The position numbers were made by a program, and so were the translations under genes. From the IMG/VR virus record IMGVR_UViG_3300031134_000007, positions 40,313 through 104,312 of that record: a stretch of 64,000 nt of DNA. One strand, written 5' to 3'. The notes under the pieces were generated by a model that was not told where the DNA came from, searched no databases, and worked only from the letters and a program-made list of their open reading frames with translations. This document shows positions 45,519 through 47,737 of the stretch, one piece after another (position 1 is the stretch's first letter; every line of letters starts with the position of its first letter). This stretch comes from a virus.

Positions 45519-45962
45519 TCAGATCGATTCTGCGACGTTTGAACATATGATTTTGAACTCACGTTCAACAATACTGTTGGTGCCAGTAATGCCAGCACCG
45601 CCAAACAGACGCTCCAGACCTTTGTCTGACACATATTTGCGATACGCTTTCCACGCATTCGCTACGCCTTCTTTGGTGATCGCAGCGCCAGTAAACAGTT
45701 TACGGACGTTAGCTTTCAGCCAGGCATAGATATTAGCCAGACGGTCTTTCTCATCAACCAGGCTATAGCTCATTGCTACAGCGCGTTTGATATCAGATAC
45801 ATCAACATCGATGCCGATCAGTTTAGGGTTACGGAACTGGTAACGACGTTCAGCCAGACGAGCCACGCCATTCACGCCCAGTTCGTTGATGTTTTCACGT
45901 ACCATCGCAACGAATTCGTCAGACATTACGAAGGTCAGTTTTGCAGTGTTAATAGTGTTCAT
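45519..45962 (-). CDS. Hypothetical protein
   Basis: Start moved to ATG 45962 (GAGG RBS); strong codon bias. Confidence 0.7.
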   Translation of the reverse strand: MNTINTAKLTFVMSDEFVAMVRENINELGVNGVARLAERRYQFRNPKLIGIDVDVSDIKRAVAMSYSLVDEKDRLANIYAWLKANVRKLFTGAAITKEGVANAWKAYRKYVSDKGLERLFGGAGITGTNSIVEREFKIICSNVAESI

Positions 45963-46030
45963 GGTAATACCTCTTTGCAATTGATTGATTATGGTTAGTT
46001 TGCTGAGGTTCACATGAACGCTCAGCGATG

Positions 46031-46111
46031 TTAAGGACTATTGCAAACGAACCGGCACACCCTTGTAAGAGTAACCAGGTTAGTTTGGTTTAACGGACAG
46101 GATAATGGCAT
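46031..46111 (-). CDS. Possible 26-aa peptide (not in the ORF track)
   Basis: MPLSCPLNQTNLVTLTRVCRFVCNSP; AGGAGGT RBS overlapping the upstream stop. Confidence 0.35.
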   Translation of the reverse strand: MPLSCPLNQTNLVTLTRVCRFVCNSP

Positions 46112-46122
46112 AGGACCACCTC

Positions 46123-46254
46123 CTAGAACTGCAGGTATGTGACAGTGGACTTAACATGCCCACGGCCGGCTTTCTTATTGATGTAGTTGAGAGCAGCAGT
46201 GGCTGCAAGCGAAACAACTACGGAGACAACAACTTTGGTAATGATCGATTTCAT
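46123..46254 (-). CDS. 43-aa membrane peptide (not in the ORF track)
   Basis: MKSIITKVVVSVVVSLAATAALNYINKK...; GGAG RBS preceded by CCTTAACCTGT. Confidence 0.6.
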   Translation of the reverse strand: MKSIITKVVVSVVVSLAATAALNYINKKAGRGHVKSTVTYLQF

Positions 46255-46290
46255 GATAATGCTCCAACAGGTTAAGGCGAAACAAACTAC

Positions 46291-46524
46291 TTACTGCGTC
46301 AGATTCTCAATGCGTGGGTCAGTGGCAGCAACTGAGCGAACTGATTTGACACGGACCACAGGCTGCGGGGCAAGGATAACGATCTTCAGTTTCTCGTCGC
46401 CCTGGTCGATCTTGGTTTGATGACGCTTGTTACGGATCTTCTGAATCTGGACCTCGTAATAGACACCCGCCGCAATCATGGCAGTGCAAGCAGCAACGTA
46501 GGCAACTTTAGCTAATGTGTTCAT
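46291..46524 (-). CDS. Small membrane protein
   Basis: 77 aa; N-terminal hydrophobic helix then a basic tail. Confidence 0.65.
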   Translation of the reverse strand: MNTLAKVAYVAACTAMIAAGVYYEVQIQKIRNKRHQTKIDQGDEKLKIVILAPQPVVRVKSVRSVAATDPRIENLTQ

Positions 46525-46548
46525 AAGGGACTCTCACAGGTTAAGGGG

Positions 46549-46800
46549 TTATTTAACAACTTCGTACAATGGGGCGATACGGTTAAAATCAACAGCTTTA
46601 CCAATCAGATCCATGCACTCGATGTAGCTAGGACTGTTAGACTGACGAACGATTTTCATAACGGCTTCGTGTTGCTCACTACGAGTCAACTTACGCAGCA
46701 CCACTGGCTCTGGTTTTGGTTTACGTTTGAAAACAGTGGCGATAGCGGTTACAGCGACAGCAGCGACAGCGATGATGGCAACAGCGTTTACGTTTGACAT
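46549..46800 (-). CDS. Small membrane protein
   Basis: 83 aa; Ala/Val TM helix then KRKPK. Confidence 0.7.
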   Translation of the reverse strand: MSNVNAVAIIAVAAVAVTAIATVFKRKPKPEPVVLRKLTRSEQHEAVMKIVRQSNSPSYIECMDLIGKAVDFNRIAPLYEVVK

Positions 46801-46826
46801 GATAGTTCCTACAGGTTAAGGGAAGG

Positions 46827-46922
46827 TTAAGCAGTTTCTTTTGAATCACCGTATGGAACATTCCACACAACGACCAGTGCAACAAACAGAACTAAAGATA
46901 AGACAGTCGTTAAATCAAACAT
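46827..46922 (-). CDS. 31-aa membrane peptide (not in the ORF track)
   Basis: MFDLTTVLSLVLFVALVVVWNVPYGDSKETA; preceded by CCTTAACCTGTGAGA. Confidence 0.6.
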   Translation of the reverse strand: MFDLTTVLSLVLFVALVVVWNVPYGDSKETA

Positions 46923-46955
46923 GGAATATTCTCACAGGTTAAGGTTAAAGGGTTA

Positions 46956-47192
46956 TTACAGGGATGCTGCAGCGATATTGTCGATGGACTTCTTGGCTTG
47001 GGCTTGGACCTCTTCGTTATGAGGGTGGGTCGCCGCCACTTTGTTAATAGCATCGATAGAGGACTCTGCCATGGCATCAGACAGTTCGTCTATGATGACT
47101 TTGGCTTCTTTGTGGTTCTTGACTAACAGCACGATACCGGTTGCGATGGCAGCGATAGATGCAGTAGCGGTAATGATCAGTTTAGTGTTCAT
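46956..47192 (-). CDS. Small membrane protein
   Basis: 78 aa; N-terminal TM helix; GAGG RBS. Confidence 0.7.
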   Translation of the reverse strand: MNTKLIITATASIAAIATGIVLLVKNHKEAKVIIDELSDAMAESSIDAINKVAATHPHNEEVQAQAKKSIDNIAAASL

Positions 47193-47250
47193 GGTGAATC
47201 CTCATTGATTAGTTAGATGTAAGAGAAGTTTATTGCTCTTATTCACCTTT

Positions 47251-47265
47251 TTAATATAGGTCTGA
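47251..47265 (-). promoter_or_regulatory. Early promoter motif TCAGACCTATATTA
   Basis: 14-bp identity with the copy at 47631-47644. Confidence 0.65.
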
Positions 47266-47294
47266 GATTTTCTACAACTCAAAAGAAACGGTTT

Positions 47295-47588
47295 TTACCA
47301 ACCGATTGACACGCCGTCATCCATTTCACTCAATGCATCGTGGAGTAAGCGACCCGTCTTATCAATGTTTAATTCCTTTTTGGAACGTTCTTCCTTCAGT
47401 GCTAAGATTTCCGCATACAACATTTTTACTTTTGGTGCAAATTTCTTGGACTCCTGCAGGTTTGCTGCAAACCACTTCTTTTCCATTTTGGTATGTTTAG
47501 CAGTTAACTTTACCAACTGTGCAGTAATCTCAGTGATACGGGCGCGGTCGGCTTTAATGTCGGCTTGATATTCGATTACAGTTTTCAT
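47295..47588 (-). CDS. Coiled-coil hypothetical protein
   Basis: 97 aa; Lys/Glu-rich; own promoter motif. Confidence 0.65.
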   Translation of the reverse strand: MKTVIEYQADIKADRARITEITAQLVKLTAKHTKMEKKWFAANLQESKKFAPKVKMLYAEILALKEERSKKELNIDKTGRLLHDALSEMDDGVSIGW

Positions 47589-47629: not shown

Positions 47630-47644
47630 CTAATATAGGTCTGA
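47630..47644 (-). promoter_or_regulatory. Early promoter motif TCAGACCTATATTA
   Basis: Identical to the copy at 47252-47265; directly after a terminator. Confidence 0.65.
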
Positions 47645-47683
47645 AACCATCTGCAGCTCGAAACAAACAAAAATAAAAGATCG

Positions 47684-47737
47684 GCATAAAACCTCAACCC
47701 TTCCCCGTGAGGAGAAAGGTTGAGGCCTTACTTATGC
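47684..47737 (-). terminator. Terminator hairpin, GCATAA family
   Basis: CCTCAACC...GGTTGAGG flanked by GCATAA and TTATGC. Confidence 0.75.

What the first reader, a model, noticed from the sequence alone, without database searches (positions are those of the whole stretch)
46031..47265. Array of tiny membrane-protein genes, each headed by an identical CCTTAACCTGT motif at fixed spacing
Seen: behind one early-promoter motif lie five consecutive ORFs of 78, 31, 83, 77 and 43 aa, each with a single N-terminal hydrophobic helix, plus a possible 26-aa ORF. Three of these six are missing from the ORF track. Four are preceded by an exact CCTTAACCTGT ending 10-12 nt before the ATG (46267, 46536, 46811, 46934), and most spacers are built from TAACC(C)T units. 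The coding sequences are otherwise dissimilar. Inference: the motif is an RNA processing site, a translational operator or enhancer, or a recombination handle for gain and loss of mini-gene cassettes. The products may be early inner-membrane effectors (superinfection exclusion, anti-defence, early-infection vesicle).
Basis: partly seen in the sequence, partly recalled or inferred. Interest (0 to 1): 0.75.

Follow-up and report, generated by a model that had tools for sequence, protein, structure and literature searches.

The report
Shared ribosome-site motif on phage mini-genes
In an early operon of a jumbo phage, four of five tiny membrane-protein genes carry the same nine-base tag (TTAACCTGT) directly against their ribosome-binding site; the tag also precedes about a dozen other genes per genome in this phage clade and lies at the seams where such genes get reshuffled, so it is most likely a translation-control signal whose reader is unknown.

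Summary
On the minus strand an early, phiKZ-type promoter (CCTATATTA, 47260-47252) drives five single-pass membrane mini-genes of 78, 31, 83, 77 and 43 aa. All five are under purifying selection (dN/dS 0.07-0.19). The 26-aa ORF is not supported. Four exact CCTTAACCTGT copies end 10-12 nt before the ATGs.

The motif is not special to the array. The core TTAACCTGT occurs six times in the 104-kb record, always on the coding strand, abutting a Shine-Dalgarno and 10-12 nt before an ATG. Variants (TTAACYYGT) precede about 8-15 genes per genome in Erwinia phage pEa_SNUABM_48, Salmonella phage SA002 and a 273-kb IMG/VR relative, but not in the more distant phage RAY.

It lies inside leaders just downstream of early promoters, after terminators, and between cistrons. 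It is unstructured, and it is no more complementary to E. coli 16S rRNA than shuffled versions. Best reading (0.6): an mRNA element of the translation-initiation region, read by an unidentified factor.

In a close relative (flanking protein 96% identical) the 31-aa gene sits in another slot, and the homology blocks break exactly at motif copies. No recombinase was found.

This scan had already noted the same motif in a relative (e1-5368587).

The parts
47289..47304 (-). Terminator-like hairpin plus T-run that closes the preceding 97-aa early unit
   Evidence: sequence
47232..47290 (-). Early promoter module: T-rich stretch, GAGTTGTAGA, the CCTATATTA box (47260-47252), then the leader GGTGAATAAGAGCAAT
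   Evidence: The same module heads the array in pEa48, SA002, L061 and G001, and a second mini-gene array in relatives. phiKZ-type early promoters are AT-rich boxes centred near -10 (PMC7598289).
46956..47192 (-). 78-aa single-pass membrane mini-protein; the first cistron, with no motif and Shine-Dalgarno TGAGGA
   Evidence: hydropathy 2.33; dN/dS 0.16. A 24%-identical homologue in G001 is motif-led at another locus.
46934..46944 (-). Motif copy 1, CCTTAACCTGT, 11 nt before the ATG of the 31-aa gene
46827..46922 (-). 31-aa membrane mini-protein; a mobile cassette that sits between the 77- and 43-aa genes in L061/L109
   Evidence: dN/dS 0.19
46811..46821 (-). Motif copy 2, 10 nt before the ATG of the 83-aa gene
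46549..46800 (-). 83-aa membrane mini-protein with a conserved C-terminal tail; its SA002 orthologue (81 aa) is also motif-led
   Evidence: dN/dS 0.16
46536..46546 (-). Motif copy 3, 11 nt before the ATG of the 77-aa gene (TTAACTTGT in L061)
46291..46524 (-). 77-aa membrane mini-protein
   Evidence: dN/dS 0.15
46267..46277 (-). Motif copy 4, 12 nt before the ATG of the 43-aa gene. Kept as TTAACCGT, TTAACCCGT or TTACCCGT before the orthologue in pEa48, G001 and SA002.
46123..46254 (-). 43-aa membrane mini-protein, the only array member present in every relative
   Evidence: (dN/dS 0.07)
46031..46111 (-). 26-aa ORF behind a strong Shine-Dalgarno; not supported as a gene
   Evidence: fold z-score -1.63, not significant
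46002..46026 (-). Conserved hairpin GCTGAG / 13-nt loop CGTTCATGTGAAC / CTCAGC between the array and the 147-aa gene
   Evidence: Compensatory stem changes in pEa48 and a different stem around the same loop core in SA002; one copy per genome; predicted in the fold
45519..45962 (-). Conserved 147-aa flanking gene (phrog_11150), used as the anchor for relatives

Best explanation
UUAACCUGU (consensus TT[A/G/T]AC[C/T][C/T]GT, often preceded by a C/A-rich stretch or a half-copy TAACC) is a single-stranded mRNA element belonging to the translation-initiation region. It abuts the Shine-Dalgarno and ends 10-12 nt before the AUG. It marks a set of roughly 8-15 genes per genome in one clade of phiKZ-like jumbo phages with two multisubunit RNA polymerases. 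These genes are mostly small, often lie in early transcripts and are enriched for membrane proteins. In the array, one early promoter makes a polycistronic mRNA, and each downstream mini-cistron carries its own copy, so each is initiated or regulated independently and alike.

Shown: the position, the strand specificity, the conservation, and the location inside transcribed leaders.

Inferred: the motif is read at the RNA level by a sequence-specific partner that raises or gates ribosome loading. The partner is a phage or host protein, or an RNA not yet seen. That makes the element an operator or enhancer of an early regulon.

Side effect (shown by comparison): identical 11-14-nt initiation regions give microhomology at which mini-gene cassettes are moved, inserted or replaced.
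For: 1. All 6 exact cores in the 104-kb record are on the coding strand, 10-12 nt before an ATG and abutting a Shine-Dalgarno. The fraction of positions that qualify by chance is 0.007.
2. With up to 1 mismatch, 8, 10 and 12 sites precede called genes in own, pEa48 and SA002, where about 0.4-0.9 are expected. A looser pattern gives 31 sites whose spacing peaks at 12 nt. In G001, 15 of 26 sense-strand hits are of this type, and the backwards-read control pattern gives 3/1 hits.
3. Orthologous genes keep the motif while the flanks diverge (dS 0.7-1.2).
4. At least 7 sites start 25-49 nt downstream of the start of an early-promoter box, which places them inside early 5' leaders. Others follow terminator hairpins or lie between cistrons.
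5. The motif is predicted to be mostly unpaired (mean pairing probability 0.32-0.40) and has no conserved structure.
6. Motif-led sites have slightly weaker Shine-Dalgarno pairing (-5.8 against -6.7 kcal/mol, p 0.02). Orthologues of the 77-aa gene that lack the motif carry strong TAAGGA or AGAGGA sites.
7. Its position and its 5' half resemble the T7 gene-10 epsilon enhancer UUAACUUUA(A), which is placed just upstream of the Shine-Dalgarno (PMC9590205).
Against: No transcript ends, ribosome data or reporter data exist. The motif's complementarity to E. coli 16S rRNA is no better than that of shuffled versions (-10.5 against a mean of -12.5 kcal/mol; 56 of 60 shuffles do at least as well), so the classical epsilon pairing model is not supported. 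The comparison of Shine-Dalgarno strength is biased, because my crude gene caller picks starts by Shine-Dalgarno score. Several copies follow terminators directly, which would also suit a promoter.
Confidence: 0.6

Rival explanations
1. The motif is a promoter or start-site element for one of the phage RNA polymerases, for example the undefined middle class. Each marked gene would then get its own short-leader transcript.
For: It is strand-specific, conserved and clade-specific, like jumbo-phage promoter motifs. Several copies sit directly after terminator hairpins. Middle and late promoters of these phages are poorly defined (PMC7598289). None of the 31 motif-led genes lies on the minority strand, which suggests a link to a gene class.
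Against: The spacing to the Shine-Dalgarno and ATG is rigid at 10-12 nt, whereas early promoters in the same genomes sit at variable distances. At least 7 copies lie 25-49 nt downstream of an early-promoter box, inside the leader. Four copies lie 120-275 nt apart within one early operon. The motif resembles neither the TATATTA early box nor the phiKZ late T(-3)ATG(+1) element.
Confidence: 0.13
2. The motif is the recognition site of a sequence-specific endoribonuclease of phage or host. Cleavage would cut the polycistronic early mRNA just 5' of each ribosome-binding site, either maturing the mini-cistrons or inactivating them, as T4 RegB does.
For: A nearly invariant 9-mer suits a sequence-specific enzyme. 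It is single-stranded, sits at cistron boundaries and lies next to the Shine-Dalgarno. T4 offers a precedent for post-transcriptional shut-off of early mRNAs at their ribosome-binding sites (general knowledge).
Against: No RegB homologue was found, although that search had no positive control. The motif is not avoided within coding sequence on the sense strand: pEa48 has 7 non-initiation sense copies where about 1 is expected, probably owing to AAC-CTG codon use. It also occurs in monocistronic leaders, where maturation would serve no purpose.
Confidence: 0.13
3. The motif's primary role is at the DNA level, as a recombination handle that defines mobile mini-gene cassettes. This would be an integron-like plug-in system.
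For: The 31-aa cassette occupies different slots in own/L060 and in L061/L109, and the homology blocks break at motif copies. G001 holds an extra motif-led 54-aa cassette in a second array. The same promoter, leader and motif are followed by different genes in pEa48 and SA002. Motif stutters (TAACC half-copies) lie upstream.
Against: None of the four genomes encodes a tyrosine recombinase, and the control rang in 14 of 14 genomes. The motif is not an inverted repeat like attC. Most copies elsewhere precede single conserved genes. Mini-gene order also differs between G001 and pEa48 at junctions that lack the motif. Gene borders are the usual mosaic boundaries in phages in any case.
Confidence: 0.08
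4. There is no specific function. One ribosome-binding region was copied along with duplicated or transposed small genes and simply persists.
For: The array copies share 11-14 identical bases including the Shine-Dalgarno, and the cassettes do move.
Against: The motif is exactly conserved while neighbouring spacer bases and synonymous sites have diverged (dS 0.7-1.2). It precedes unrelated genes all over four genomes and is kept at orthologous sites between phages of different hosts.
Confidence: 0.05

Closest known systems
Epsilon translational enhancer of phage T7 gene 10 (UUAACUUUA[A])
   Same: Both are short single-stranded elements in the leader, placed immediately 5' of the Shine-Dalgarno. 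They share the 5' half UUAAC: 6 of 9 bases for TTAACCTGT and 7 of 9 for the TTAACTTGT variant.
   Different: The 3' half differs (CUGU against UUUA). The element here sits closer to the AUG, at 10-12 nt. It is no more complementary to 16S rRNA than shuffled versions, whereas epsilon finds nt 455-466 in the same test. It is used on a dozen genes per genome rather than one.
Phage T4 RegA operators and RegB cleavage sites on early mRNAs
   Same: Both are sets of early mRNAs that share a short RNA signal at the ribosome-binding site, which allows joint post-transcriptional control. This is a functional analogy based on general knowledge.
   Different: The sequence is different. The motif lies 5' of the Shine-Dalgarno rather than over the AUG (RegA) or within GGAG (RegB). 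No RegA or RegB homologue was found in the four genomes.
Integron gene cassettes
   Same: Small promoterless genes in one orientation are expressed from a common upstream promoter. Each unit is bounded by a repeated site, and the order and content of units differ between close relatives.
   Different: There is no integrase and no attC-like imperfect palindrome. The repeat is part of the ribosome-binding region and also occurs at many non-cassette genes.
Uniform translation-initiation contexts of other jumbo phages (scan notes e1-1994813 and e1-5687974)
   Same: These are genus-specific, near-identical ribosome-binding contexts shared by many genes, or mini-gene arrays whose junctions carry the next gene's ribosome-binding site.
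   Different: Those are unchecked AI notes on other genomes with different sequences. Here the element is a separate 9-mer upstream of an otherwise variable Shine-Dalgarno.

Membership tests
T7 gene-10 epsilon-type enhancer | Located in the 5' leader directly upstream of the Shine-Dalgarno | tested here: met
   All six exact copies, and 31 loose copies, abut the Shine-Dalgarno
T7 gene-10 epsilon-type enhancer | Sequence UUAACUUUA(A) | tested here: not met
   6 of 9 identical (7 of 9 for TTAACTTGT); the 3' half differs
T7 gene-10 epsilon-type enhancer | Complementarity to 16S rRNA nt 458-466 | tested here: not met
   The best duplex with E. coli 16S is -10.5 kcal/mol, weaker than the shuffle mean of -12.5. 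The epsilon control finds 455-466. No genome holds a helix-17 sequence ACAGGTTAATAACCTGT. The host's own 16S is unknown.
T7 gene-10 epsilon-type enhancer | Raises translation of the downstream gene | not testable with these tools
   Needs reporter assays
T4 RegA-type translational operator regulon | A shared RNA site at the ribosome-binding region of several early mRNAs | tested here: met
T4 RegA-type translational operator regulon | Phage encodes a RegA-family repressor (PF01818) | tested here: inconclusive
   No match in G000, G001, pEa48 or SA002, but the control genomes did not ring either, and G000 is only 37% complete
T4 RegB cleavage sites | RegB nuclease (PF10715) and a GGAG target within the Shine-Dalgarno | tested here: inconclusive
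   No PF10715 match, with no positive control; the motif lies 5' of the Shine-Dalgarno
Integron cassette array | IntI-type tyrosine recombinase | tested here: not met
   PF00589 is absent from all four genomes; the control rang in 14 of 14
Integron cassette array | attC sites (imperfect inverted repeats) bounding the cassettes | tested here: not met
   TTAACCTGT is not self-complementary, and the spacers show no conserved hairpin
Integron cassette array | Promoterless cassettes in one orientation behind a common promoter, with variable content | tested here: met
phiKZ-type phage promoters | Early type: AT-rich box centred near -10. Late type: T(-3)ATG(+1). | tested here: not met
   The motif matches neither and lies downstream of early boxes, inside leaders

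The most novel reading that the evidence does not exclude
A dedicated trans-acting reader, probably a phage-encoded RNA-binding protein, recognises UUAACCUGU next to the ribosome-binding site and switches an early regulon of membrane mini-proteins and other small effectors on or off in nucleus-forming jumbo phages. Because the same tag travels with each gene, it would also work as a universal plug-in site: newly acquired mini-genes would be expressed and regulated at once wherever they recombine into an array. That would be a recombinase-free 'translational integron'.
Probability: 0.2. Interest if true: 0.8.

Novelty: new variant of a known kind. Interest (0 to 1): 0.55.

Why it matters
Gene regulation in jumbo phages with two RNA polymerases is known almost only at the level of promoters, and the review read here (PMC7598289) says that middle and late signals cannot be predicted from sequence. 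A conserved nine-base element at the ribosome-binding site that defines a gene set would point to a layer of post-transcriptional control. It can be tested directly in two cultured phages, Erwinia phage pEa_SNUABM_48 and Salmonella phage SA002. The element also labels fast-evolving arrays of orphan membrane mini-proteins made in early infection, which are plausible host-takeover or exclusion factors. Finally, it shows how such arrays can be reshuffled without loss of expression.

Tried and rejected
1. Pairing with 16S rRNA: no better than shuffled motifs. A scan for a helix-17 variant ACAGGTTAATAACCTGT in 185,579 species found nothing.
2. A phage antisense or small RNA carrying the complement, wobble allowed: only the opposite strand of the sites themselves, a tRNA T-arm in SA002, and one conserved mRNA leader (ACGGGTTAA) that fits chance frequency.
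3. Conserved RNA structure around the motif: none. Rfam: only a chance SECIS_3 hit far below threshold.
4. Sequestration of the Shine-Dalgarno by the CCT of the motif: the possible pairings are not consistent between copies (read).
5. CsrA-like GGA sites: many copies lack GGA.
6. Homology between the 83-aa protein and a G001 79-aa motif-led protein, suspected by eye: BLASTP found nothing.
7. Function of the mini-proteins: no Pfam, PHROG or ESM-atlas lead, and only close relatives in the 5.8-billion-protein search.
The IMG/VR and metagenome scans added only L060, L061 (identical to L109 in the array region), L062 (G001) and L114.
9. The literature search for the motif returned only unrelated primers.

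Full report
WHAT THE WINDOW IS. The window is bases 40313-104312 of a 104-kb IMG/VR virus record estimated at 37% complete. It encodes split multisubunit RNA-polymerase beta-type subunits (phrog_3148 and phrog_2986). It is therefore a phiKZ-like jumbo phage that carries its own RNA polymerases. The nearest isolates are Erwinia phage pEa_SNUABM_37/48 (294 kb) and Salmonella phage SA002 (288 kb). The flanking 147-aa protein is 67-69% identical to theirs and 33% identical to that of the Agricanvirus phages Ea35-70, RAY and Deimos-Minion.

THE OBSERVATION. All features lie on the minus strand.
- A terminator-like hairpin (47304-47289) closes a 97-aa early unit.
- An early-promoter module follows. 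Its box CCTATATTA lies at 47260-47252 and its leader is GGTGAATAAGAGCAAT. Such AT-rich boxes centred near -10 are the early promoters of these phages (PMC7598289).
- Behind it lie ORFs of 78, 31, 83, 77 and 43 aa, then a 26-aa ORF, a conserved hairpin (46026-46002) and the conserved 147-aa gene.
- CCTTAACCTGT is exact four times and ends 11, 10, 11 and 12 nt before the ATGs of the 31-, 83-, 77- and 43-aa genes. No shuffle in 100 reached the observed count.
- Each of the five proteins has an N-terminal hydrophobic stretch (hydropathy 1.63-2.65). Four have a basic segment right after it, which by the positive-inside rule puts the tail in the cytoplasm.
- Against the relative L061 the five genes show dN/dS of 0.07-0.19 at dS of 0.69-1.24, so they are coding, the 31-aa one included.
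- The 26-aa ORF is not hydrophobic, has dN/dS 0.39 on seven changes, and is absent or replaced in more distant relatives. I do not count it as a gene.
- The five proteins are mutually dissimilar and have no family or atlas match. Their only homologues are close relatives.

THE MOTIF IS NOT AN ARRAY FEATURE.
- The 9-base core TTAACCTGT occurs six times in the whole 104-kb record. All six are on the coding strand, abut a Shine-Dalgarno, and end 10-12 nt before an ATG. Two of them lie 57-60 kb away from the array, in front of 288- and 260-aa genes.
- With one mismatch allowed, 8, 10 and 12 copies sit in this configuration before called genes in own, pEa48 and SA002, where about 0.4-0.9 are expected.
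- A slightly looser pattern gives 31 sites, with the spacing peaking at 12 nt.
- In the complete 273-kb relative G001, TTAACYYGT occurs 26 times on the sense strand against 5 on the antisense strand (backwards-read control 3/1). Fifteen of the 26 are in the ribosome-binding configuration.
- In RAY the pattern is mildly enriched, but only one hit could be of this type. RAY also has no mini-gene array at this locus.
- Orthologous genes in pEa48, SA002 and G001 keep the motif, with C/T changes at positions 6-7.
- Between own and L061 the motif stays exact while the spacer bases around it and the synonymous sites have diverged.
- An extra half-copy (TAACC, TTAAC) often lies just upstream, both inside and outside the array.
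- Motif-led genes are small (median 152 aa), of unknown function, and enriched for N-terminal hydrophobic helices (32% against 8% of all genes).
- None of the 31 lies on the minority strand, which holds 17% of the genes.

RNA LEVEL OR DNA LEVEL. The motif is always locked to the Shine-Dalgarno and ATG, but its relation to transcription signals varies.
- At least seven copies start 25-49 nt downstream of the start of an early-promoter box, which places them inside the early 5' leader.
- Others follow terminator hairpins, several of which end in TTTTATG and so resemble the phiKZ late start T(-3)ATG(+1).
- Four lie between cistrons of a single early operon.

Early promoters in the same genome sit at variable distances from the ATG. 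The motif resembles neither known promoter type. This pattern is what an element of the translation-initiation region would show. It is hard to reconcile with a promoter, though it does not exclude one.

The motif region is predicted to be mostly unpaired and shows no conserved structure. Rfam finds nothing. Motif-led sites have slightly weaker Shine-Dalgarno pairing, but that comparison is biased by my gene caller. Orthologues of the 77-aa gene without the motif carry strong TAAGGA or AGAGGA sites, whereas the motif-led copy has only GAGAG.

WHO READS IT. In position and in its first five bases the element resembles the T7 gene-10 epsilon enhancer. Its complementarity to E. coli 16S rRNA, however, is below that of shuffled versions, while the same test places epsilon at nt 455-466 as expected. 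No helix-17 variant complementary to the motif exists in the genome collection. No complementary phage RNA was found. No RegA or RegB homologue was found either, but those two searches had no positive control and the own record is incomplete. The near-invariance of nine bases argues for a sequence-specific reader, and it remains unidentified.

I therefore commit to an mRNA element of the initiation region that sets or gates translation of an early-biased gene set (confidence 0.6). The rivals are a promoter (0.13), an endonuclease site (0.13), a primary recombination role (0.08) and no function (0.05).

GENE TURNOVER. Six versions of the array were compared.
- Own and L060 have the order 78-31-83-77-43.
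- L061, whose flank protein is 96% identical, has 78-83-77-31-43. The 280-kb metagenome contig L109 is identical to L061 in the array region.
- BLASTN blocks between own and L061 break at the motif copies: window 47289-46931, 46945-46852, 46821-46313 and 46277-45503. The first two blocks overlap on the motif itself.
- SA002 has promoter-[motif]-81-60-[variant]-43. pEa48 has 42-63-[variant]-42-69. G001 has 57-43-[variant]-42.
- A second early array with the same promoter module exists in G001, pEa48 and SA002. G001 alone carries an extra motif-led 54-aa membrane cassette there, and the head gene of that array is a distant homologue of the 78-aa protein.
- The same promoter, leader and motif are followed by different genes in pEa48 and SA002.

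However, no tyrosine recombinase exists in any of the four genomes, and the motif is not palindromic. The order of mini-genes also differs between G001 and pEa48 at junctions without the motif. Recombination at repeated identical initiation regions is thus best read as a consequence of the motif, not as its purpose.

LIMITS. My gene calls are crude.

EARLIER NOTES OF THIS SCAN. Notes e1-5368587 and e1-5368576 describe the same motif and mini-gene island in a relative. Note e1-6025700 is a second reading of this same stretch.

Noticed in passing
window 46002-46026 (-): Hairpin GCTGAG / 13-nt loop CGTTCATGTGAAC / CTCAGC between the array and the 147-aa gene. The stem changes are compensatory in pEa48 (GCAGAG/CTCTGC), and SA002 has a different stem around the same loop core. 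There is one copy per genome and no T-run. Function unknown.
   Followed up: partly
window 47232-47290 (-) and 47630-47700 (-); L111 200-290: Early promoters here are modules of roughly 60-70 nt, not just a box: TTTTATGCCGA, a T-rich stretch, TTTGAGYTGCAGA, TTTCAGACCTATATTA, N4, then GTG. The version with leader GGTGAATAAGAGCAAT heads two different mini-gene arrays in relatives.
   Followed up: partly
G000 bases about 26530 and 14490 (outside the window); window about 47680 (-): Terminator hairpins are repeatedly followed by TTTTATGCC or TTTTATA. This resembles the phiKZ late start T(-3)ATG(+1) and may be a composite of terminator and late promoter.
   Followed up: no
window 46123-47192 compared with 45519-45962: Against L061, synonymous divergence is 0.69-1.24 in the array genes but 0.24 in the adjacent 147-aa gene. 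The array is a hot spot of divergence or exchange.
   Followed up: partly
pEa48 about 270,600-270,720; SA002 about 259,700-259,820; L108: An intergenic leader of about 100 nt before a proline-rich 560-590-aa gene is far better conserved than the flanking genes. It holds TATATG, a 7-bp 5' hairpin, and ACGGGTTAA, the exact complement of the TTAACCCGT variant. The complement is probably chance (about 2 such 9-mers are expected per genome).
   Followed up: partly
G001 61.2-62.9 kb (L112) and 199.8-200.8 kb (L111): Further clusters of motif-led small membrane proteins (60, 209 and 79 aa; 72, 54, 77 and 152 aa). The clade keeps several such early arrays.
   Followed up: partly
SA002 about 176,330-176,380: A phage tRNA-like gene whose T-arm reads GCAGGTTAAAATCCTGC, which is partly complementary to the motif. 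Probably coincidence.
   Followed up: no
window 46112-46130 (-): A strong Shine-Dalgarno (TAGGAGGTGGTCCT ATG) after the 43-aa gene is conserved in SA002, where it leads only a 7-codon ORF. It may be a hairpin or a ribosome trap rather than a gene start.
   Followed up: no
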